Below are positions 1,886-12,024 of a stretch of 20,000 bases of DNA, piece by piece (positions within the stretch are counted from its first letter, which is position 1; every line of letters begins with the position of its first letter). Position numbers and translations under genes: made by a program. The notes beneath the pieces are model-generated. The model was not told the origin of the DNA and did no database searches. It worked only from the letters and a program-made list of their open reading frames with translations. This DNA is from an uncultured virus (IMG/VR IMGVR_UViG_3300029915_000022). Lineage: Duplodnaviria; Heunggongvirae; Uroviricota; Caudoviricetes. The stretch lies in IMG/VR virus record IMGVR_UViG_3300029915_000022; one strand, 5' to 3'.

Positions 1886-3466
1886 TTATCTAGAAAGGAA
1901 GGTTAAGGGTTCACGGAAATGAACTAGATCGATTGGAGGCGAGGCGTCGCACCCGACCCCCATCAGGGACATTGTGCATGTGGAGCTTGGGCTGGTCAGC
2001 AAGATCTCCGCGAATCCGACAGTCCAACTCGTTGGAGTGGCTGTGTTCGACGCGCCGATCGTCACGGCAGATGTCCCCGTGCTCCACGCGTTCTCATTCC
2101 ATAGGATACCAGTTGCCCCGGATGTATTGTTATTTGCAATGGTTGCTTGCGGTGTCGTGGTTGGAGTGCGGCTAGTTTGATTCGCGCTATCTACGCCCCC
2201 ACCTAAGAGCAGACTTCCCTTTGCCGCCGGAGTGATCGTAATCGCCGCCGGACCCGAGCTGGTGGCCCCACACTGGAAATTCGCAGGCAACGTTTTTTCT
2301 GAATAAAGAGGTGCAACTACGAATATTGTACTTGAGATCAGCGAGGTCGCAGTGAATGTGGCAGTGACCGTCTTGCTTGAAGCCTGACTCGTTGTTACTG
2401 CGCACCACTCGTCTACCAATGCAGTCGTTCCATTCATGCATGGGGCGCCGAAAACATGCTGCCAACCCGCACTCGTTTTGGAGATTCCGCTATCGGAAAT
2501 GGCGACGCTAGAGCTGGTAAGTCCGACGCCTTGAACTTCCACCATTGCGCATAGAAGTTCAGACGGTGCCGACGTTGATCGGCTGGGGGAAGTCGTATTG
2601 GTGGTTGCTGTCGTAGTGCTGTGGCCCGGACAACTCGGAATAATGCCCGAGCTATTATTAGTTGCAGTTGGGCACCAGACGGGATCTACACCCACGTTTA
2701 CAGACGCGTCGAAGATCTCTACGGGATAACCGGACCAAGTTTGGGTTACGACGGCAGGACTAGCAGAGGCAACCAGGCTGCCTCCGGTGCCAAGAGGCGA
2801 AGTCATTAGCCACAGCGCATGAGAATTTGCGGCATCGAGCACCTGATAAGTCACGGTCCCGCTAATTGCCGTTCGTGACGTTGCGCTATGCGAGTCGGCG
2901 AACCCAGCAAATGAATAATTATTTGCAGTCGTGAGTCCGCTAGGGTTCGCCGTCGCTGTAGTTCCCGTGTCGGTTCCGCCCTGCGCTTTCCCGATTGTCG
3001 CGGGAGATCCAAATACCAGCGGGACGCCAACTATATCTTGCACCACTCCGCTAGTAGTGGTGGCCGAGAAGTTACAAGTGACTCCCGTTAGCGCAGACGA
3101 CGTATAGGCGAAGAACGAAGCAGAGCACGTTGGTGTAGTGGTTGAACACTCAGTTCCTACGTTGCTAACCGAGACGAGGAAAGTTCCTGAGCCTCCCGTG
3201 AAGGTTGGCGTTGCGAACGAGATTGTTCCAGCCGTCGCAATAGCCATCACGTGGATCTCAATCAACTCAATCCCGTTCATCGCGGCGGGTGGCGCGGTCG
3301 AAAATGAAGACGTGGAAGCGGTGGTGGTGGTGCCCGATCCGAGGATATTGCTGGCCACAGGACACGATCCCGCCCCGGTTGGGCAAGCTGACGTGTCGAA
3401 CGTGAGAGCTGCGCGCGCGGAGCCGGAGCACAGGAGCAGTGCCAGGAGGATCTTAACGGCACGCAT
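1886..3466 (-). CDS. Exported Ser/Thr-rich protein with two tandem ~230-aa beta-rich domains
   Basis: Preferred start is ATG 3466 (GGAGG SD 8 nt upstream), giving the signal peptide MRAVKILLALLLCSGSARA|AL. Both halves show D...CPT...SCP, DS....TSRT and W....(V/A)EI. Confidence 0.75.
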   Translation of the reverse strand: MRAVKILLALLLCSGSARAALTFDTSACPTGAGSCPVASNILGSGTTTTASTSSFSTAPPAAMNGIELIEIHVMAIATAGTISFATPTFTGGSGTFLVSVSNVGTECSTTTPTCSASFFAYTSSALTGVTCNFSATTTSGVVQDIVGVPLVFGSPATIGKAQGGTDTGTTATANPSGLTTANNYSFAGFADSHSATSRTAISGTVTYQVLDAANSHALWLMTSPLGTGGSLVASASPAVVTQTWSGYPVEIFDASVNVGVDPVWCPTATNNSSGIIPSCPGHSTTTATTNTTSPSRSTSAPSELLCAMVEVQGVGLTSSSVAISDSGISKTSAGWQHVFGAPCMNGTTALVDEWCAVTTSQASSKTVTATFTATSLISSTIFVVAPLYSEKTLPANFQCGATSSGPAAITITPAAKGSLLLGGGVDSANQTSRTPTTTPQATIANNNTSGATGILWNENAWSTGTSAVTIGASNTATPTSWTVGFAEILLTSPSSTCTMSLMGVGCDASPPIDLVHFREPLTFLSR

Positions 3467-4808
3467 ACATTCCACCTCCGCTCACGTTCGTAGATCCTCC
3501 GACGGCTACACAGACATTCTGCGAAACGGTCGCTGTCGCGTTAATCGGGTGGCCAGCAGAAGGGGCCATACCACCTCCAGCCGCGAAACCCATCGAAGCC
3601 GTCGTATTTCCCCACATGCCGCGAGGTGTTCCGCCAGCGCAGGAGGATCCTGTACCCTCGATAATCGATACGAGCTGAGCAGATCCCGACGAAGAATTGA
3701 CAAGCGTTAAAGAGCAGATATAGATCTGTTTCCCTGAGCAAAGCGGAATGATGATTGCGGTGCTCGCCGTTGAGAAGGAAAATGGAGTATCACAGACGAT
3801 CGCCGTCGAGGTTCCGTCAGACAACTTGAAGGATCCAATTAGGGCAGACCCCGCAACCAGCCCGATCGTCCCACCAGTCGCCTGCATAACCGCTGAGCCA
3901 AGAGAAGCCAGAATCGCCGCGAGAGTCGTCTGCGACGCAGCCCCCGTAGGCAACGGCTGTGCAGCTCCGTTTGGTGACAAAGAAACTGTAGTCGCCTTGT
4001 CCCCGGCTACAGGAGTGGTCGAGCCGGGCTGAACTTTCGCCGTGTTCGTACCGTCACTGGTCCCAACCCACGGAGTCGCGTTCGCAGATCCTTGATTCGC
4101 GTTTATCGTCGTCGGCGGCGTGAGGGCCGCGAGCTGGAGCGCCGTGAGAACAACAGGCCACGACCCCGCAGCTAGGGCTTGTCCCTGAGCTGGGATCTTG
4201 TCCGTGTCCGTCTTGATCGCGGCGAGGTTGCCTCCGGACTCGAGAGCGAGCAAAGAAGTATTGAGATTCGTGCCCGCGTTGGCGGTGAACGCAGTGTTGC
4301 TGATCGAGCCGATTGCAGACGCTCCTCCGCCAAGGATCACGGTCGGGTTGACCGCGAACGCAGGCAACGTTCCCGAGATACCAAAGCTCGTGTTGCTGAT
4401 GCTGCCTCCAGCGATATTGAAGGAAGGCGTCGATGCGAACGGTGGCAGTGTGCCGCTGATCCCAAAGGCGGTGTTCCCGATATTTCCTCCGCCGAGATTG
4501 AACGTAGGTGTAAAAGCGAATGCGGGGAGTGACCCGGTGAGCGATACAGATCCCGACACAGGTTGCGGAGTAGTCCCTGTTGGGTCGATACGAACCGGAT
4601 TCGTCAAAGATCCCAGCGTATTCGATCCATCGTAGAGTTGAACCTTCGCCGACCCGTTGGTAAGAGTGGTGTCCGTTGTAGCCACCGGAGTACCGCCCAA
4701 GAATCCCTGAATCTGCTGAATACCTGGAGCGTTGGTTGCAACTGCGACTCCTGTGGCCACAAGGAGTGCGCCAACAACTCCGGCCAAAACGGCTTTTCCA
4801 TTCGTCAT
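3453..4808 (-). CDS. Fibre/appendage-like protein with N-terminal signal peptide, internal 27-aa repeats and a Cys-containing C-terminal beta domain
   Basis: N-terminus MTNGKAVLAGVVGALLVATGVAVA|TN, a Gly/Ser/Thr/Ala-rich body, and tight coupling to the neighbouring genes. Confidence 0.7.
   Translation of the reverse strand: MTNGKAVLAGVVGALLVATGVAVATNAPGIQQIQGFLGGTPVATTDTTLTNGSAKVQLYDGSNTLGSLTNPVRIDPTGTTPQPVSGSVSLTGSLPAFAFTPTFNLGGGNIGNTAFGISGTLPPFASTPSFNIAGGSISNTSFGISGTLPAFAVNPTVILGGGASAIGSISNTAFTANAGTNLNTSLLALESGGNLAAIKTDTDKIPAQGQALAAGSWPVVLTALQLAALTPPTTINANQGSANATPWVGTSDGTNTAKVQPGSTTPVAGDKATTVSLSPNGAAQPLPTGAASQTTLAAILASLGSAVMQATGGTIGLVAGSALIGSFKLSDGTSTAIVCDTPFSFSTASTAIIIPLCSGKQIYICSLTLVNSSSGSAQLVSIIEGTGSSCAGGTPRGMWGNTTASMGFAAGGGMAPSAGHPINATATVSQNVCVAVGGSTNVSGGGMYACR
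4287..4541 (-). repeat. Three tandem ~27-aa protein repeats
   Basis: LTGSLPAFAFTPTFNLGGGNIGNTAFG / ISGTLPPFASTPSFNIAGGSISNTSFG / ISGTLPAFAVNPTVILGGGASAIGSISNTAF. Confidence 0.85.
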
Positions 4809-5102
4809 TTAGAATTCCTCGACAAAGCCGGTTTGACCACCGTCAGCAGAAAAGATCCAGATATCTTGGGAAGTCGGGAGGATCCGGGATTCTTCCCCAG
4901 ATGCGATAACTTTCCCGGTCGACGCATTTACGCCGTTGTCGTATCCGTAGTAGATGGGAGATCCGGGGCCAGATCCAATGTCGACGCTTATCCGGGCAAT
5001 TAACCGTCCGGACAACCCAATCGCTGGGACCTTAACCGGCGTGTTCGCGGTTAAAGGACCCCAAGCCGTTAGTTTCGCAGCGGTTGAGAATGGTGTCGAC
5101 AT
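4809..5102 (-). CDS. Small beta-rich hypothetical protein (possible appendage base or decoration protein)
   Basis: 97 aa with a GAGG SD; its stop abuts the next ATG. The function is inferred only from size, composition and position before a fibre-like gene. Confidence 0.55.
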   Translation of the reverse strand: MSTPFSTAAKLTAWGPLTANTPVKVPAIGLSGRLIARISVDIGSGPGSPIYYGYDNGVNASTGKVIASGEESRILPTSQDIWIFSADGGQTGFVEEF

Positions 5103-5112
5103 TTGGCCTCAG

Positions 5113-5850
5113 TTAGAAGCTAAGCGACGGGCCGAAAACGAGACGAGCTGCAACGTCCCCGATAAAGCCCTTCCACCACCCGAAAGACGCATAGCCATTC
5201 AGGACGCTTGCGACAACCCCGATGGATACCTGTTGCGCGACGAAGTCCACCCTTCCGCACGCGTTCAAACCAACCGAGTACCACTGGCCCTTCCACGCAG
5301 TCGCATTGTAGCAGAGCCCCGGTTGGAAGGCTCCTTCAACCTTCTTTGTATGAAGATTGATCGACGTAACAATGACCACCGCGGCTGGTTGGAAACTGAA
5401 GACGCCGACGGTCCCGCCGAACGAAGTCGTCGTCACCGGTGGAGTATCGGACGATGCGACCTTGGGCAGAACCGGTTCAACCTTGACAGGATCCGCATGA
5501 GTCGAAAACGATAGAAGTAGTGTGGCAAGGAAGATCCCAACCAGAACTGGGATCAAGGCGAATCCATTTGGAGGAGTCAATGTAGTCCTTCCGGACCCAA
5601 GTTCGATAGCCATCGGGTGGCCACTCGGAACGGCGGCAAGTAAGGGGAACTTCAGTGGATTCTCGGATTGGGTGTCGTAGTGCTCAGCAATAGAGAACCT
5701 CGCGCACACCAACTTCAGCAAGGCAAGGATCGCCGGAGTGAAGGTCGTGGGGTGCTCAGTCACCATCGTGAAGATGGTCGGCGCGAAGGCAGACGCGATC
5801 AAAATCAGCATCGTCTGATGAGCAACCAAGAATGCGAGAAAGCCGGACAT
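5113..5850 (-). CDS. Lysis-associated membrane protein: holin-like N-terminus, internal hydrophobic signal segment, beta-rich C-terminal domain ending in Phe
   Basis: Directly downstream of the endolysin with an AAGGAG SD. Hydrophobic segments at about aa 1-30, 38-52 and 97-116; the C-terminus is RLVFGPSLSF. Confidence 0.6.
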   Translation of the reverse strand: MSGFLAFLVAHQTMLILIASAFAPTIFTMVTEHPTTFTPAILALLKLVCARFSIAEHYDTQSENPLKFPLLAAVPSGHPMAIELGSGRTTLTPPNGFALIPVLVGIFLATLLLSFSTHADPVKVEPVLPKVASSDTPPVTTTSFGGTVGVFSFQPAAVVIVTSINLHTKKVEGAFQPGLCYNATAWKGQWYSVGLNACGRVDFVAQQVSIGVVASVLNGYASFGWWKGFIGDVAARLVFGPSLSF

Positions 5851-5904
5851 AGAATCTCCTTTGAAGGTAAGTGATCGTCTACTACTTTGGGAAGATTTGC
5901 AATC

Positions 5905-6378
5905 CTATTCTGGATCCTGAACAGGAGTTGACCACAACGCGCATTCGGCTTCCCGGCGGTTGATCAAACCTTGGCTGACCTTAAGCTCGTGAGGCGGCGC
6001 GGGATCCGTCTCTTTGTTCCAGAGACGAATGTGGTCCGGGACTTCCGAAAGACTCCCGGCAAGGGCGAGAGCTCGCGCGGAGCTCGTCGCGAACCTGCGA
6101 AGTCCAATGTTGTACGCCAGGATCACAAGAGCGCTGTACTGGTTGTCATTCAGTATCGCGCCGCGCATAAGCGAATTGATCCCGATGCAGAAAATCTGAA
6201 CGTCTCGGTCGTACGCACGGTCTGCTTGATCCTGGGTCCAAACAAGCCCCATAACAACGTCGGGTCCAGTGTGCCCGTACCCGATTGTCCAGACGAGTTT
6301 CTCGTCTTCATAAGCCTTGAACTTGCAGTCTTCCAGGCGCTTCAAAAGATTCTTTGCACGGTCTGTGAACGTATTCAC
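5905..6378 (-). CDS. Endolysin, glycoside hydrolase family 24 (phage lysozyme)
   Basis: E-x8-D-x5-T triad in EDCKFKAYEDEKLVWTIGYGHTG, plus LNDNQYSALV..AYNIG and GLINRREAE. There is no N-terminal SAR segment. Confidence 0.95.
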   Translation of the reverse strand: MNTFTDRAKNLLKRLEDCKFKAYEDEKLVWTIGYGHTGPDVVMGLVWTQDQADRAYDRDVQIFCIGINSLMRGAILNDNQYSALVILAYNIGLRRFATSSARALALAGSLSEVPDHIRLWNKETDPAPPHELKVSQGLINRREAECALWSTPVQDPE

Positions 6379-6389
6379 GATTCACCAGG

Positions 6390-6418
6390 TTGCAAACGGG
6401 TTAGCCCTTGGTTATACT
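6390..6418 (+). promoter_or_regulatory. Sigma70-type promoter for the antisense lipoprotein gene
   Basis: TTGCAA (6390-6395), a 17-nt spacer and TATACT (6413-6418), followed by a GAGGTG SD and ATG at 6437. Confidence 0.7.
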
Positions 6419-6436
6419 TTTACCAAGAGGTGACAC

Positions 6437-6697
6437 ATGCGCTTTCTAGTTCTTGTGACGCTAGTTTCCTGCGGGGTCTCTACGCAACTCCAAAGTTCGG
6501 CCAATCCTCCGGATTCGGTATGTTCCGAATTCTACTGCCCTTCTGGGTTGATGGAACTCAATGCTCAGTTCCAACCAGCGGAGTGTATTTGCTACTGCAG
6601 TGATTCGCTCCCGCCAGTTGAACTAGATAACCCACTTCCGGTTACGCCACAAGGAATCCAAAATTCCGAATTTCTTTGGAGGACCTTCTGCGGTTAA
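6437..6697 (+). CDS. Small Cys-rich putative lipoprotein (moron-like)
   Basis: MRFLVLVTLVS|C has a lipobox-like signal and five more Cys follow. It has its own promoter and SD, fills the gap between tail fibre and endolysin, and its TAA overlaps the tail fibre TAA. Confidence 0.7.
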   Translation: MRFLVLVTLVSCGVSTQLQSSANPPDSVCSEFYCPSGLMELNAQFQPAECICYCSDSLPPVELDNPLPVTPQGIQNSEFLWRTFCG

Positions 6698-8040
6698 CTG
6701 GAAGGAGTTGTGGTTCGGTATGAGAGCATCTTGAAGTAGTCAATCGCGATGAATTTCGTTCCGGCACCAGTTCTGGATCCCACTCGAAAATATGGGGTGT
6801 ATCCAACATCCAGGAAACCTGGAATAGTTGATACCGGATACCCGATTGTCATTGTACTGTCCGGACTAAAAAGGGTTCCTCCAGTATCCCCGCTTGCGTT
6901 CACCAACGCGATTGTGAACGCGTACCCATCGACAAGGTTGGAACGGCCAACGGCTTGCATTCCGATACGGACATGACAACTATTCGTGATTGTAGGCCCG
7001 TTGAACCATGTGCTGTAGGCAGCTCCGGATCCTGCTTTATCGTGTCCAAGGGAGAACTTGGTTGCATTCACCGTCGAATCAAAAACGGCTGCAACGTAGT
7101 TGTTTGGAGTACCGCCACTGGATAAGGATCCATTATCCCAAAGTCCAAATTCAACAACTAGATTCGTCAGTGAGCTTGGGAACTGGAACTGGCATTCGAT
7201 ATAAGGCTCAAACCCTGCCCATCCTTGCCCAGTTGTGGTGAAAGCAAGCGATAAGGCTTCCCAGTCGCTCGCAGCAGAAGCTGCACAAGTGACTAATGCA
7301 GAACTGTCCTGGACAGTTACAGATCCCGCATTCGTTCCATGCGATGTAACCCACGGCCCACTCGTCACTAATCCAGTTCCAGGAAAATCGTCAAAAAAGA
7401 GTCCGCGATTCTGAGCATCCGCAATCCAGAGACTTTCCGGAGTGATCATAACGTGGTCTATCTTTGCCTGCGCTCCGGAAACAGCCGTGCCCTCTTGCGT
7501 AAATCTCCAGTCGAATGTATGGTGTCCTTCACGAAGAATGTCTGACGTCCATTTCCCGCTCAGCGGAATCGTATCACCTCGCGGCTGGAGAGGGGCAACA
7601 ATTGACCCGTCAATGTAGAAAGAGAGTATATCTCCGTTCGTATTACTCGCAAGAAGGTTAAAGAAAAAACTAACCCGACTTGGAGAAGTGATGTAAAAAT
7701 CTAGCCCGAGGGATGCAACTTGCGACGCCGCTTGCCCTGAAGGTCGATCAGCGCTTGCAGACCCTTCAAGCGGTGTCGAAGTAGAACGAATGTACCCGAG
7801 GTCTGATCCGTACCGACGAGATGGAGCAGACCATGCACCTGAAGGACTAGGAGGCGGAAAGGTTGCTGACTCGAATTTTTCAAGCATCGCTCCTGAATTC
7901 AAAAGCGAGTTGAGGTAAGCTGTCCGATCCGCCAACTGCTGAAGTGAAGTCGCGATCGACGCGCCATTTAGAACGTCGGTATCATCTGGCGAAGTGATTG
8001 CCGGAAAAGCTGTGGGGTCGTCGACAATAGGATCGGACAT
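6694..8040 (-). CDS. Tail fibre / receptor-binding protein
   Basis: Follows the wedge genes. The N-terminal P.D.D...GAS....LQQLADRTAYL is typical of myovirus fibre attachment regions, and two beta-sandwich/lectin-like domains follow. Confidence 0.8.
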   Translation of the reverse strand: MSDPIVDDPTAFPAITSPDDTDVLNGASIATSLQQLADRTAYLNSLLNSGAMLEKFESATFPPPSPSGAWSAPSRRYGSDLGYIRSTSTPLEGSASADRPSGQAASQVASLGLDFYITSPSRVSFFFNLLASNTNGDILSFYIDGSIVAPLQPRGDTIPLSGKWTSDILREGHHTFDWRFTQEGTAVSGAQAKIDHVMITPESLWIADAQNRGLFFDDFPGTGLVTSGPWVTSHGTNAGSVTVQDSSALVTCAASAASDWEALSLAFTTTGQGWAGFEPYIECQFQFPSSLTNLVVEFGLWDNGSLSSGGTPNNYVAAVFDSTVNATKFSLGHDKAGSGAAYSTWFNGPTITNSCHVRIGMQAVGRSNLVDGYAFTIALVNASGDTGGTLFSPDSTMTIGYPVSTIPGFLDVGYTPYFRVGSRTGAGTKFIAIDYFKMLSYRTTTPSS

Positions 8041-10932: not shown

Positions 10933-12024
10933 TCAGTACGTCTCTAGTGTATTCCAGCCGTAGTTCAGATACACAGACGTGTTGGACAGTGGCGTAATCG
11001 TTGTGAAGGGGAATGCGGCAAGCCACACGTTGCTCGGCGGCACAGTGGATGGCCCTGCATACTGGGTTCCGTCGATGCTGCACGAGATCGACGGGCTCGC
11101 ATGTCCTGCGGGGATGTAGACTGAAAATGTATGGTAGTTCGTATCGGCCGCCACACCGGTATTGACGCAGTTATAGTTGGTGCCGTTTCCGGCGCAGCAT
11201 TGATAGTTCGCACTGACGGCGGAGTCATAGCTGATACCAGCGAATTTGCACGCCGACGATGTGGATGTAGTGACACCGGGAGTAGCATTCAGAAATGTGC
11301 AAGCCGAGCCCGTTGTAGCGCCAATCGCTACCCACATGCGCGTGAACGCGGTAGTTCCGTTTCCTAGACCAGCGTATTGCGTATAACGAGGGTCAAAAGA
11401 GAAAGAGGTGTTGTCTCTGTTTTGAGGAGCGATGCCTGTATATTGGCCAGCCGAAGAACCAGACTGGACAAACATCGTGTTGACATAGACCGAGAAGGTT
11501 TCGTTGTTTCCGCTAGACCCGATTGTCCCGAGCAGCCCCCAGTTATTAGAGCTTCCGGCGCACGTAAATCCGCTTGAACTGCCCAGATCGCTCTGGGAGA
11601 TGCGGCACATCTCCCACTGCTTCTGCGCAAACAGCGCGGGGATTGTCGCAGGATAGACGACACCTCCGTCGCTGGCGAGCGCCGCCCCTGCGGTATAAGG
11701 CAGCGACGCCGTGTTCGTTCCGCCGTCGGCGATGGGATTCACGACCCCTGACGGAATGCCTCCGTCCGCATAGCCGGGCGCGTTCTGCACGAACGCCCAG
11801 ACCTGCGAGCAGATCGTCTTCTGCTGCTTGGTCGACAGCGGCGGACCGGAAAACCCTGCATCTGGATCTGATGTCCACGCCGTATAGATGTCAGCCGAGA
11901 GCGTGCCAACTCCGCCGTCGCACGTCGCGTTCCCGACCGGCTCGGCCTGCGCGGTGCTGCCGCCGACGACGAGCAGGCCTACGAGCAGCGCGCCGAACAC
12001 GAGAGCCGCGAGAATCCGATTCAT
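10933..12024 (-). CDS. Signal-peptide-bearing fibre/lectin-like protein inserted in the baseplate cluster
   Basis: Signal peptide MNRILAALVFGALLVGLLVVGGSTAQA|EP, a fibre-type PIADGGT motif, and a C-terminal ConA-like pattern (TGVAADTNYHTFSV...CSIDG). ATGA overlap with the spike gene. Confidence 0.7.
   Translation of the reverse strand: MNRILAALVFGALLVGLLVVGGSTAQAEPVGNATCDGGVGTLSADIYTAWTSDPDAGFSGPPLSTKQQKTICSQVWAFVQNAPGYADGGIPSGVVNPIADGGTNTASLPYTAGAALASDGGVVYPATIPALFAQKQWEMCRISQSDLGSSSGFTCAGSSNNWGLLGTIGSSGNNETFSVYVNTMFVQSGSSAGQYTGIAPQNRDNTSFSFDPRYTQYAGLGNGTTAFTRMWVAIGATTGSACTFLNATPGVTTSTSSACKFAGISYDSAVSANYQCCAGNGTNYNCVNTGVAADTNYHTFSVYIPAGHASPSISCSIDGTQYAGPSTVPPSNVWLAAFPFTTITPLSNTSVYLNYGWNTLETY

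What the first reader, a model, noticed from the sequence alone, without database searches (positions are those of the whole stretch)
5113..5850. Gene after the endolysin looks like a holin, internal signal and outer-membrane beta-barrel polyprotein: candidate non-canonical spanin or lysis protein
Seen: residues 1-52 have two hydrophobic segments. Residues 96-119 read G|FALIPVLVGIFLATLLLSFSTHA|DP, resembling a prepilin N-terminal motif (GFxLxE, here with P in place of E5) followed by a signal peptidase I site. The remainder is a Pro/Thr linker and about 6-8 amphipathic aromatic-rich strands ending in LVFGPSLSF. Established: a C-terminal Phe is the BAM-recognised signature of outer-membrane beta-barrels; a non-SAR GH24 endolysin needs a holin; Gram-negative phages usually carry Rz/Rz1 or a u-spanin. 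None of these is otherwise recognisable in the window. Inference: one gene may supply both inner-membrane and outer-membrane lysis functions, either as an uncleaved envelope-spanning protein or as a processed polyprotein.
Basis: partly seen in the sequence, partly recalled or inferred. Interest (0 to 1): 0.75.

Follow-up and report, generated by a model that had tools for sequence, protein, structure and literature searches.

The report
Holin-like, signal-peptide, OMP-like lysis precursor
The gene after this phage's endolysin encodes a small membrane module joined through an internal secretion signal to an outer-membrane-like beta domain, a conserved but unnamed design that may give the phage both its holin and a new kind of outer-membrane lysis factor.

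Summary
Window 5113-5850 (minus strand) is a 245-aa gene with a strong ribosome-binding site, 54 nt after a non-SAR GH24 endolysin.

It belongs to an unnamed family of 46 full-length proteins, almost all from metagenomes. The conserved core is a hydrophobic segment ending small-x-Ala, then a ~105-aa Gly/aromatic-rich, low-charge beta domain.
- AlphaFold2 models the domain at pLDDT 93 as six long antiparallel strands.
- Its nearest folds are beta-barrels, many of them outer-membrane ones, but only weakly (Z ≤ 6.5).
- Ten members are just signal peptide plus domain. Thirty-six carry unrelated N-terminal membrane modules.
- Two of those modules weakly hit holin families.
- The query's own module also occurs fused to a lipoprotein signal.
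- In 2 of 4 loci a peptidoglycan hydrolase gene lies directly upstream.

Best reading (0.45): a lysis-cassette precursor, cut by host signal peptidase I into a holin-like inner-membrane piece and an exported, outer-membrane-directed beta domain.

The prepilin resemblance and the uncleaved envelope-spanning form are not supported.

Nothing is shown experimentally, about 21 kb of the phage genome could not be seen, and the host is unknown.

The parts
5113..5850 (-). Whole gene, 245 aa plus stop (P0001)
   Evidence: ORF list and translation. It is 100% identical on a second, 65-kb contig (L003).
5856..5861 (-). Shine-Dalgarno AAGGAG, 5 nt before the ATG
   Evidence: Read from the sequence. Supports M1 as the start, as does N-terminal conservation with P0005, P0008 and P0011.
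5566..5850 (-). N-terminal membrane module ('type A'), residues 1-95: TM helix about 3-32, amphipathic or weak TM helix 36-56, then a disordered loop that carries the positive charges
   Evidence: Hydropathy. AF2 helices, and pLDDT below 50 for residues 54-98. 34-42% identical to P0005, P0008 and P0011 across the whole alignment. No Pfam, PHROG or NCBIfam hit.
5494..5565 (-). Internal signal-peptide-like segment, residues 96-119 (GFALIPVLVGIFLATLLLSFSTHA); predicted signal peptidase I site after A119
   Evidence: Hydropathy 2.56-2.75. The small-x-Ala site is conserved in 45 of 46 members by script, and A119 is at least 90% conserved. Cleavage itself is inferred.
5419..5493 (-). Pro/Thr/Val-rich linker, residues 120-144
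   Evidence: Translation. Low to medium pLDDT. Length varies from 12 to 115 residues across the family.
5116..5418 (-). Conserved beta domain, residues 145-245: six long antiparallel strands, C180/C198 cross-strand pair, C-terminal GPSLSF
   Evidence: AF2 pLDDT 93.2 and pTM 0.80. Alternating conserved small/polar face and hydrophobic face. Cys covariation. Barrel-like structural neighbours.
5905..6378 (-). GH24 endolysin (P0002), no SAR or signal sequence, directly upstream with a 54-nt gap
   Evidence: PF00959 E 2e-28; phrog_7 endolysin E 6.7e-39; translation.
6437..6697 (+). 86-aa Cys-rich lipoprotein-type ORF (P0039) on the opposite strand. Probably not part of the cassette, but listed because it is the only lipobox ORF near it.
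   Evidence: Lipobox scan; translation; promoter-like TTGCAA-17-TATACT at 6390-6418; GAGGTG before the ATG.

Best explanation
The gene encodes a lysis-cassette precursor with three parts: (1) a small inner-membrane module of holin type; (2) an internal Sec-type signal peptide that ends in a signal peptidase I site (THA|D after residue 119); (3) a short linker and a ~100-residue beta-meander domain that resembles a small outer-membrane barrel.

Proposed course of events:
- Late in infection the protein inserts into the inner membrane, N-terminus out, with a positively charged loop in the cytoplasm.
- The third hydrophobic segment threads the C-terminal part into the periplasm.
- Host signal peptidase cuts after A119.
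- The ~119-residue N-fragment stays in the inner membrane, accumulates, and serves as the holin that lets the cytoplasmic GH24 endolysin reach the wall.
- The ~126-residue C-fragment is oxidised (C180-C198) and goes to the outer membrane, where it weakens or breaches that layer once the wall is gone. In this it takes the place of a spanin.

Shown here: the architecture, its conservation, the modular exchange of N-modules, the predicted fold, and the gene neighbourhoods.
Inferred: topology, cleavage, outer-membrane targeting, holin activity and outer-membrane disruption.
For: 1. Family. An exhaustive HMMER search found 35 representatives at E <= 1e-3. A profile search added 11 and locus scans added 3. 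That gives 46 full-length members.
2. Signal site. A small-x-Ala site follows the last hydrophobic segment in 45 of 46 by script, and in the 46th by eye. It is A-x-A in 36, and the next residue is Q in 23, D in 7 and E in 4.
3. Short forms. Ten of the 46 are only an ordinary N-terminal signal peptide plus the domain, so the domain works as an exported unit.
4. Long forms. The other 36 carry at least one upstream TM-like segment, of several unrelated types.
5. Holin hints. P0020 residues 35-104 hit phrog_1299 'holin' at E 1.4e-4. P0012 residues 37-96 hit PF09682 Holin_LLH at E 0.0023, 18.8 bits against a cut-off of 24.9.
6. Second fusion. The query's own N-module recurs in P0008 and P0011, fused there to a lipobox signal (ISSC|S, ASGC|S). 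So it pairs twice with a partner that can be sorted to the outer membrane.
7. Domain fold. pLDDT 93.2 and pTM 0.80, with six long strands.
8. Two faces. One conserved Gly/Ser/Thr/Glu/Asp/Arg/Tyr face (information 2.79, hydropathy -0.25) alternates with a variable hydrophobic face (2.46, +2.11).
9. Composition. Mean charged residues 9.7%, Gly 16.3%, aromatics 12.8% over 46 domains.
10. Oxidising location. The 147/152 Cys pair is present in 43 of 46. C180/C198 occur together in exactly 3 and never singly, at cross-strand positions.
11. Structural neighbours. They include OprF-N, PagL, OmpA, NspA, PapC, TamA, BamA and CarO at Z 4.6-6.4. ESM Atlas models of OMP_b-brl clusters match at TM 0.60-0.65, and the nearest named feature hits are PagL, Phage_OMP and PagP at 0.86-0.87.
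12. C-terminus. P0001 ends G-P-S-L-S-F, which fits G-x-x-hydrophobic-x-hydrophobic (the motif is recalled).
13. Context. A GH24 endolysin lies directly upstream in the window. A Tlde1-type L,D-peptidase domain (PF10908, E 4.9e-11, above its cut-off) lies 21 nt upstream in L006.
14. No rival lysis genes seen. No other endolysin, holin or spanin was recognised among the 55 ORFs scanned in the 44 kb held of this phage, nor among the ORFs scanned in G001 (rated complete) and G002 (86%).
Against: - No experiment supports any step, and no dedicated signal-peptide or topology predictor was available. Cleavage and topology rest on motif conservation and the positive-inside rule.
- P0001's own N-module hits no holin family in Pfam, PHROGs or NCBIfam.
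- Only 2 of 36 N-modules gave holin hits. One is below Pfam's cut-off, and about 50 proteins were scanned per call.
- The domain has six long strands, fewer than the eight of the smallest known monomeric outer-membrane barrels.
- Structural matches are at Z <= 6.5, a range the tool calls common. They mix in soluble barrels such as lectins, TbpB lobes, designed barrels and Cap15. Foldseek on PDB gave nothing at E <= 0.001.
- No Pfam outer-membrane-protein family is hit at E <= 0.1 by any of the 35 members scanned.
- At least 11 members (P0038, P0040, P0041, P0043-P0050) carry a 15-30 residue polar tail after the last strand, so the terminal hydrophobic residue is not always C-terminal.
- Only four gene contexts could be read. 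In two of them (L004, L005) no peptidoglycan hydrolase was recognised.
- About 21 kb of the 65-kb phage genome could not be fetched, so a canonical holin or spanin there is not excluded.
- The genes after this one encode three proteins with signal peptides, so this gene could belong to a secreted-protein set rather than to lysis.
Confidence: 0.45

Rival explanations
1. An uncleaved inner-membrane lysis protein: a holin or antiholin whose last TM helix anchors a folded periplasmic beta-barrel domain. The domain would regulate or drive hole formation, in the way T4 holin T carries a large periplasmic domain or the CBASS effector Cap15 couples TM helices to a small beta-barrel.
For: The position right after the endolysin and the TM segments are the same facts as for the best explanation. 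The Cap15 barrel is among the structural neighbours (Z 5.6-5.8, rmsd 3.7-3.9, 78-83 residues aligned). P0001's hydrophobic stretch (about 18-19 residues) is long for a signal peptide h-region. The T4 T and Cap15 architectures are recalled, not tested here.
Against: The small-x-Ala motif is kept in 45-46 of 46 members, which a plain anchor would not need. Ten members have short, typical cleavable signal peptides such as MKKLLALSALLFACLMPVMAKA|Q. The hydrophobic face of the strands and a charged-residue share of only 9.7% fit a water-exposed periplasmic domain poorly. No hit to the Phage_holin_T family or any other holin family for P0001.
Confidence: 0.2
2. An exported envelope protein unrelated to lysis: a phage-encoded small outer-membrane or periplasmic protein for superinfection exclusion, receptor masking or envelope remodelling. 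The N-terminal membrane modules would be unusual extended leaders that control export.
For: Phage-encoded barrel-type outer-membrane families exist. The nearest named Atlas clusters are viral PagL-like and 'Phage_OMP' PF24653. The same operon goes on to encode proteins with clear signal peptides (451 aa and 529 aa; also a 363-aa one upstream). In L004 and L005 no hydrolase was recognised next to the member.
Against: A hydrolase lies directly upstream in 2 of 4 loci from unrelated phage types: a myovirus-like tail module in the window, and an SU10-adaptor type in G002. There are holin-family hints in two N-modules. The gene is co-oriented and tightly spaced within the late operon, unlike the oppositely oriented lipoprotein ORF with its own promoter.
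Confidence: 0.2
3. An uncleaved 'reversed u-spanin': the TM helix stays in the inner membrane, the C-terminal strands insert into the outer membrane, and the single chain bridges the periplasm to fuse or tear the two membranes.
For: The T1 u-spanin gp11 bridges the envelope with a mainly beta-sheet periplasmic domain (passages of PMC6139136). P0001 has about 126 residues beyond the TM helix.
Against: The conserved cleavage motif. In 30 of 45 members the linker is 30 residues or fewer, and the domain is predicted to be compact. Ten members have no anchor other than a typical signal peptide. None of 58 u-spanins has a periplasmic Cys, whereas this family keeps a Cys pair in 43 of 46.
Confidence: 0.07
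4. A pilin-like or pseudopilin-like protein processed by a prepilin peptidase at G95|F96.
For: G-F precedes a hydrophobic helix in P0001. G-F/Y is found in 14 of 36 long forms. Three members gave weak TrbC/VirB2 pilin hits (best E 0.0029, below the cut-off).
Against: The motif is internal, not N-terminal. No member has Glu at +5. It is absent in 22 of 36 long forms, and where present it reads G-F-(A/I/V)-(R/K), like the charged n-region of a signal peptide.
Confidence: 0.02

Closest known systems
Unimolecular spanin (T1 gp11 type)
   Same: A single phage lysis-cassette protein with one membrane-anchoring element for each membrane and a beta-rich periplasmic part (passages of PMC6139136).
   Different: gp11 has an N-terminal lipoprotein signal and a C-terminal TM helix. 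Here the order is reversed, there is no lipobox, a signal-peptidase-I site is conserved, and a Cys pair is kept, whereas none of 58 u-spanins has a periplasmic Cys. No sequence similarity was found.
Two-component spanins (lambda Rz/Rz1)
   Same: The position after the endolysin, and the presumed task of dealing with the outer membrane.
   Different: There is no coiled-coil inner-membrane subunit and no lipoprotein subunit in the same orientation. The only lipobox ORF nearby is on the other strand.
Disruptin (phage phiKT gp28, cationic peptide)
   Same: A non-spanin answer to outer-membrane disruption. About 15% of phages were reported to lack spanins (abstract of bioRxiv 10.1101/515445, seen in the listings).
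   Different: gp28 is described there as a cationic antimicrobial peptide. This domain is a low-charge, Gly/aromatic-rich beta structure with a signal peptide.
Holins, including class III T4 T with its periplasmic domain (recalled)
   Same: A small membrane module encoded beside an endolysin that lacks any export signal. Two relatives' modules weakly hit holin families.
   Different: P0001's module hits no holin family. No known holin is described as fused to a cleavable signal and a barrel-like domain; searches found none.
Phage-encoded small outer-membrane barrels (lambda Lom/Ail type, PagL-like, Pfam Phage_OMP PF24653)
   Same: A signal peptide, amphipathic strands, a hydrophobic C-terminal residue, and barrel-like neighbours.
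   Different: Six rather than eight long strands. No Pfam hit to those families at E <= 0.1. Most members carry an extra N-terminal membrane module.
Bradyrhizobium FbcH cytochrome b/c1 precursor (recalled, not checked here)
   Same: A bacterial polytopic membrane protein and an exported protein made as one chain and separated at an internal signal peptide.
   Different: A respiratory complex, not a phage protein, with no sequence relation. It is cited only as a precedent for the processing step.

Membership tests
Sec signal peptide with signal peptidase I site (here internal) | Hydrophobic h-region followed by small residues at -3 and -1 | tested here: met
   P0001 reads ...LLLSFSTHA|DP. Small-x-Ala in 45 of 46 by script, A-x-A in 36.
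Sec signal peptide with signal peptidase I site (here internal) | Actual cleavage by signal peptidase | not testable with these tools
   Needs a western blot or N-terminal sequencing.
Holin | Small membrane protein with at least one TM helix, encoded in a lysis cassette | tested here: met
   Two to three hydrophobic segments within residues 1-119. The gene lies 54 nt after a GH24 endolysin.
Holin | Sequence membership of a described holin family | tested here: not met
   P0001 has no Pfam, PHROG or NCBIfam hit. Among relatives, only P0020 (phrog_1299, E 1.4e-4) and P0012 (PF09682, below cut-off) gave hits.
Holin | Forms lethal membrane holes that release the endolysin | not testable with these tools
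   Needs complementation of a holin-null lysogen.
Outer-membrane beta-barrel (BAM substrate) | Export signal followed by amphipathic antiparallel strands with a lipid-facing hydrophobic face | tested here: met
   Strands. Face hydropathy +2.11 against -0.25. Charged residues 9.7%.
Outer-membrane beta-barrel (BAM substrate) | A closed barrel of eight or more strands | tested here: inconclusive
   Six long strands plus one short one. Model coordinates could not be inspected for closure.
Outer-membrane beta-barrel (BAM substrate) | C-terminal beta-signal ending in an aromatic or hydrophobic residue | tested here: inconclusive
   P0001 ends GPSLSF. The last aligned residue is L in 20, F in 17 and I in 3 of 43, but at least 11 members carry tails after it.
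Outer-membrane beta-barrel (BAM substrate) | Similarity to known outer-membrane families or structures | tested here: inconclusive
   No Pfam outer-membrane family at E <= 0.1. VIA Z <= 6.5, with outer-membrane and soluble barrels mixed. Atlas TM 0.60-0.65 to OMP_b-brl clusters.
Unimolecular spanin | N-terminal lipoprotein signal and C-terminal TM helix | tested here: not met
   No lipobox, and no C-terminal TM helix in P0001.
Two-component spanin | A type II inner-membrane protein with a coiled-coil periplasmic domain, plus a lipoprotein gene embedded, overlapping or adjacent on the same strand | tested here: not met
   The periplasmic part is all beta. The only nearby lipobox ORF is on the opposite strand.
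Type IV prepilin | A short N-terminal leader ending in Gly, then Phe/Met, then Glu at +5 | tested here: not met
   The motif sits at residues 95-96, +5 is Pro, G-F/Y is present in 14 of 36 long forms, and Glu at +5 in none.

The most novel reading that the evidence does not exclude
This family is a third mechanistic class of phage outer-membrane lysis factor, beside spanins and the cationic disruptin. It would be a small barrel-like domain, directed to the outer membrane (probably by BAM), that many phages make as a polyprotein with their holin and that the host's own signal peptidase sets free. That would make it a natural signal-peptidase-processed polyprotein in a bacterial virus. It would tie inner- and outer-membrane lysis functions together in a fixed one-to-one ratio. 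It would also account for some 'spanin-less' phages of Gram-negative hosts.
Probability: 0.25. Interest if true: 0.85.

Novelty: new variant of a known kind. Interest (0 to 1): 0.65.

Why it matters
How phages without spanins get through the outer membrane is an open question. One preprint abstract puts such phages at about 15%, and only one alternative, a cationic peptide, has been described there.

This unnamed family sits beside endolysins in unrelated phage types. It combines exchangeable holin-like modules with a conserved, exported, outer-membrane-like domain. That gives a concrete candidate that can be tested in lambda complementation systems.

It would also be a rare bacterial-virus case of one gene yielding two envelope proteins through an internal signal peptide.

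If instead the domain proves to be a soluble periplasmic regulator, it would still define a new holin-linked module.

Tried and rejected
- Word-based homologue searches. With P0001 only the protein itself was found. A search for short stand-alone copies of residues 1-119 found none. This search has limited sensitivity.
- Locus scans that failed or found nothing:
  - Alignment too variable.
  - Viral contigs with A2, A3, A7 and P0005: none confirmed.
  - Species genomes with A3: none.
  - The metagenome scan returned only the same phage.
- The rest of that 65-kb record could not be fetched. A 41-nt end pattern found nothing in viral contigs.
- tblastn of P0001, P0021 and P0044 against 50,697 GenBank phage records: no match.
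- PDB sequence searches: nothing for the family profile, for the 299-aa neighbour in L005, or for the Tlde1-like neighbour in L006.
- NCBIfam: only noise.
- Foldseek against PDB: no match at E <= 0.001 for either model.
- Homotrimer prediction of residues 141-245: verdict 'no answer', score 0.00. This is neither support nor evidence against.
- Earlier notes of this scan: nothing by place or by sequence.
- Sequencing runs: no RNA holder listed.
- Contigs of four DNA runs laid on 4800-6800 were identical to the window, so no variants were available to test selection.
- An internal start at M80 was considered and rejected. There is no good ribosome-binding site before it (read), and no conserved Met in relatives.
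- P0039 as an o-spanin was considered and rejected: it is on the opposite strand with its own promoter-like site.
- Literature searches found no description of a barrel-type lysis protein or of a holin fused to a cleavable signal. The library does not cover subscription journals.
Full report
WHAT IS THERE

Window 5113-5850 is a minus-strand ORF of 245 codons. AAGGAG lies 5 nt before its ATG (sequence).

It starts 54 nt after a 157-aa GH24 lysozyme gene at 5905-6378 (PF00959 E 2e-28; phrog_7 'endolysin' E 6.7e-39). That lysozyme's N-terminus is hydrophilic, so it has no export signal of its own. The target gene is followed after 10 nt by the next gene of the same operon.

The window is part of a 43,968-nt phage contig:
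- A myovirus-like tail module with sheath, tube, chaperone, a 640-aa ORF in the tape-measure position (no family hit) and baseplate J.
- On the other arm, family A DNA polymerase, primase, helicase, ligase, ThyX and a DpdA/QueC/QueD/QueE set.
- No head or terminase genes are present.

An identical copy of the gene lies on a 65,243-nt contig (L003), so about 21 kb of the genome was not visible to me.

Hydropathy shows segments at residues 1-32, 36-56 and 91-119. AlphaFold2, run with a 44-row alignment, gives:
- helices at 3-10, 12-32, 38-52 and 100-113;
- a disordered stretch at 54-98;
- a very confident C-terminal domain (block means 93-97) of six long antiparallel strands.

Folded alone with 47 rows, the domain reaches pLDDT 93.2 and pTM 0.80.

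A FAMILY, NOT AN ORPHAN

The word-based search found only the protein itself. The exhaustive HMMER search found 35 representatives at E <= 1e-3. A profile search added 11 and locus scans added 3.

I set aside one fragment (P0028) and two proteins that share only the N-terminal part (P0008, P0011). That leaves 46 full-length members. None has a Pfam, PHROG or NCBIfam name for the conserved part, and no sequence relative is in the PDB.

The conserved unit has four elements:
- A hydrophobic segment that ends small-x-Ala: 45 of 46 by script, the 46th by eye. It is A-x-A in 36, and the next residue is Q in 23, D in 7 and E in 4.
- A linker of about 12-115 residues.
- The motif FGGC...C.GP.
- The strands.

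Ten members are nothing more than an ordinary N-terminal signal peptide plus this domain. The other 36 carry one to four extra TM-like segments in front, of several unrelated sequence types.

WHAT THE C-TERMINAL DOMAIN LOOKS LIKE

- Two faces. Along strands 2, 3, 5 and 6 a conserved face of Gly, Ser, Thr, Glu, Asp, Arg and Tyr (mean information 2.79 bits, hydropathy -0.25) alternates with a hydrophobic face whose residues vary (2.46 bits, +2.11).
- Composition. Over 46 domains, charged residues average 9.7%, Gly 16.3% and aromatics 12.8%. From general knowledge, a conserved small/polar face with a variable hydrophobic face and low charge is what membrane-embedded barrels show. Soluble barrels show the reverse.
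- Cysteines. A Cys pair at the first hairpin is present in 43 of 46 members. P0001 lacks it but has C180 and C198. These two occur together in exactly three members, never singly, and sit at cross-strand positions of the predicted hairpin. This supports the strand register and an oxidising, extracytoplasmic location.
- Structure searches agree in kind but are weak. VIA-align's best Z is 6.4-6.5. The lists mix outer-membrane barrels (OprF-N, PagL, OmpA, NspA, PapC, TamA, BamA, CarO, OprH) with soluble barrels (designed barrels, lectins, TbpB lobes, Cap15).
- Foldseek on PDB found nothing at E <= 0.001.
- The ESM Atlas places the domain nearest unnamed bacterial clusters. By structure it lies nearest OMP_b-brl-type clusters (TM 0.60-0.65), and the closest named feature hits are PagL (a viral cluster), Phage_OMP PF24653 and PagP at 0.86-0.87.
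- BFVD holds one likely relative, a 200-aa protein of an uncultured phage (TMq 0.74, E 1.5e-3).

Six long strands are fewer than any known monomeric outer-membrane barrel has. I could not inspect the coordinates for closure.

The family's last aligned residue is L in 20, F in 17 and I in 3 of 43. One subfamily carries 15-30 polar residues beyond it.

I therefore call the domain 'outer-membrane-barrel-like'. I do not file it in any outer-membrane family.

WHAT THE N-TERMINAL MODULES LOOK LIKE

P0001's module (residues 1-95) matches nothing named. Two other module types do give hits:
- P0020 residues 35-104 hit phrog_1299 'holin' (E 1.4e-4, profile positions 8-75 of 100).
- P0012 residues 37-96 hit Pfam Holin_LLH (E 0.0023, below the cut-off).

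With about 50 proteins scanned per call, these are hints rather than proof.

P0001's own module recurs in P0008 and P0011, at 53-59% identity over the matched stretches and 34-38% over the whole alignment. There the following signal is a lipobox (ISSC|S, ASGC|S) and the exported part is an unrelated Ala-rich lipoprotein. So the same module is fused to two different partners that a diderm cell could send to its outer membrane, one through a signal-peptidase-I site and one through a lipoprotein site.

By the positive-inside rule, P0001's positive charges (K46, R51, K67, R88) lie between the first and third hydrophobic segments. This suggests N-terminus out, loop in, C-terminal part out (inference). 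Relatives that carry an extra cleavable N-terminal signal (P0008, P0011, P0025, P0026, P0007) are compatible with an outward N-terminus for that module.

GENE NEIGHBOURHOODS

Only four could be read.
- Window: GH24 endolysin directly upstream.
- L006 (contig G002, rated 86% complete; an SU10-adaptor type phage by Pfam PF24175): the order is tail fibre, two small ORFs, a 104-aa coiled-coil protein with a C-terminal TM helix, a 122-aa Tlde1-domain protein, then the 199-aa family member 21 nt later, then a strand switch. The Tlde1-domain protein scores PF10908 E 4.9e-11, above the cut-off, and shows the HG...GC motif of L,D-transpeptidase-fold enzymes by eye.
- L005 (contig G001, 47,455 nt with terminal repeats, rated complete): the member has four TM segments plus the signal. 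It lies at the end of the structural operon, next to a 299-aa protein of PHROG 19005 (function unknown). That protein shows papain-like Cys, His and Asn-Thr-Trp-Gly motifs by eye. A 132-aa single-TM protein follows.
- L004: a 3.5-kb fragment with two TM ORFs, an HNH endonuclease, the member and a downstream lipoprotein.

So a recognised peptidoglycan hydrolase lies directly upstream in 2 of 4 loci.

No other endolysin, holin or spanin was recognised anywhere among the ORFs I scanned in G001 and G002. These were 70 ORFs plus 29, chosen by length, with a GC3 filter for the 70; two short filtered ORFs were not sent. The same holds for the 55 ORFs scanned in the 44 kb of the window's phage.

No member was found in 50,697 GenBank phage records. 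Only one was found among the representative genomes of 185,579 species.

HOW IT MOST LIKELY WORKS

Confidence is 0.45. Every step below is inferred unless marked as shown.
- The late operon makes the endolysin in the cytoplasm, and makes this precursor.
- The precursor inserts into the inner membrane.
- Its third hydrophobic segment acts as a signal peptide.
- Signal peptidase I cuts after A119. (Shown: the site is conserved. Not shown: the cut.)
- The N-fragment accumulates as the holin.
- The C-fragment is oxidised and delivered to the outer membrane, where it weakens that layer. Once the wall is degraded, the cell bursts.
- Making both from one chain fixes their ratio and timing.

RIVAL READINGS

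- An uncleaved holin or antiholin with a periplasmic barrel (0.20).
- An exported envelope protein unrelated to lysis (0.20).
- An uncleaved 'reversed u-spanin' (0.07).
- A prepilin-like protein (0.02).

The remaining 0.06 is left for explanations not listed here.

The uncleaved bridge is unlikely because the cleavage motif is conserved, ten members have no other anchor, and in 30 of 45 members the linker is 30 residues or fewer. However, T1 gp11 shows that a short beta-rich chain can bridge the envelope (passages of PMC6139136).

The prepilin idea fails on position, on Glu +5, and on conservation (14 of 36).

COMPARISON WITH WHAT IS KNOWN

- u-spanins have the opposite polarity and no periplasmic Cys.
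- Rz/Rz1-type spanins need a coiled-coil subunit and a lipoprotein subunit, neither of which is present here.
- The phiKT 'disruptin' is a cationic peptide (abstract).
- T4 holin T, Cap15, lambda Lom and the Bradyrhizobium FbcH precursor are partial analogies, recalled from memory and not tested here.

Three full-text searches found no description of a barrel-type lysis factor or of a holin fused to a cleavable signal. The library lacks most subscription journals, so this is not proof of absence.

VERDICT

The feature is real and conserved.

I rate it a new variant of a known kind (a phage lysis cassette), with interest 0.65. I give a 0.25 chance that it is a new class of outer-membrane lysis factor.

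Noticed in passing
window 6437-6697 (+), promoter-like site 6390-6418: An 86-aa Cys-rich lipoprotein-type ORF (MRFLVLVTLVSC|G...) sits on the strand opposite the late operon, between the 448-aa fibre-like gene and the endolysin. It has TTGCAA-17-TATACT and GAGGTG before its ATG. By position it recalls the exclusion or conversion lipoproteins encoded beside receptor-binding or lysis genes (T5 Llp, lambda Bor; recalled). No family hit.
   Followed up: partly
window 10933-12024 (-), 3453-4808 (-), 1886-3475 (-): Three late proteins (363, 451 and 529 aa) in or after the baseplate/fibre region begin with textbook signal peptides: ...GGSTAQA|EP, ...GVAVA|TN, MRAVKILLALLLCSGSARA|A. They are Ser/Thr/Gly- and Cys-rich. 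Export signals are unexpected on virion-module proteins. No family hits.
   Followed up: no
P0008 and P0011 (metagenomic proteins): The query's N-terminal module is here fused, after an extra N-terminal signal peptide, to an internal lipobox and an Ala-rich ~130-aa lipoprotein that ends in a cationic amphipathic stretch. This is a second 'membrane module plus exported partner' design.
   Followed up: partly
L006 7018-7697 (contig G002): A 122-aa Tlde1-domain (L,D-transpeptidase fold) protein sits in the endolysin position of an SU10-adaptor-type phage. It is preceded, with overlapping start and stop, by a 104-aa coiled-coil protein with a C-terminal TM helix. This may be an unusual holin-endolysin pair.
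   Followed up: partly
L005 5102-6001 (contig G001): A 299-aa protein (phrog_19005, function unknown) next to the family member shows papain-like motifs by eye (GDCAY..., GGHAVFV..., CNTWGQ). G001, rated a complete genome, has no recognised endolysin, so this is the candidate.
   Followed up: partly
G000 contig 23132-27609 (L001 3132-7609): A DpdA-like transglycosylase with QueC, QueD and QueE homologues, plus ThyX. This is a 7-deazaguanine DNA-modification set of the kind seen in some phages of Gram-negative hosts. The primase is 57-58% identical to those of Pseudomonas, Stenotrophomonas and Variovorax phages.
   Followed up: no
L008 10934-13858 (contig G001): The 974-aa helicase carries Hint and LAGLIDADG homing-endonuclease domains inside it (PF05203, PF05204, PF14528). 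It is probably an intein.
   Followed up: no
window 4800-6800 in public runs: The stretch is held by 19 listed runs, all labelled peat metagenome: 13 with at least half of the sampled words, and 8 flagged as possible sources. Contigs of four of the runs were letter-identical to the window.
   Followed up: partly
L004 3214-3510: A 98-aa Cys-rich lipoprotein ORF lies downstream of the family member. Its signal region weakly hits phrog_3198 'Rz-like spanin' (E 0.0051, residues 10-32 only). This probably reflects signal-peptide similarity alone.
   Followed up: no
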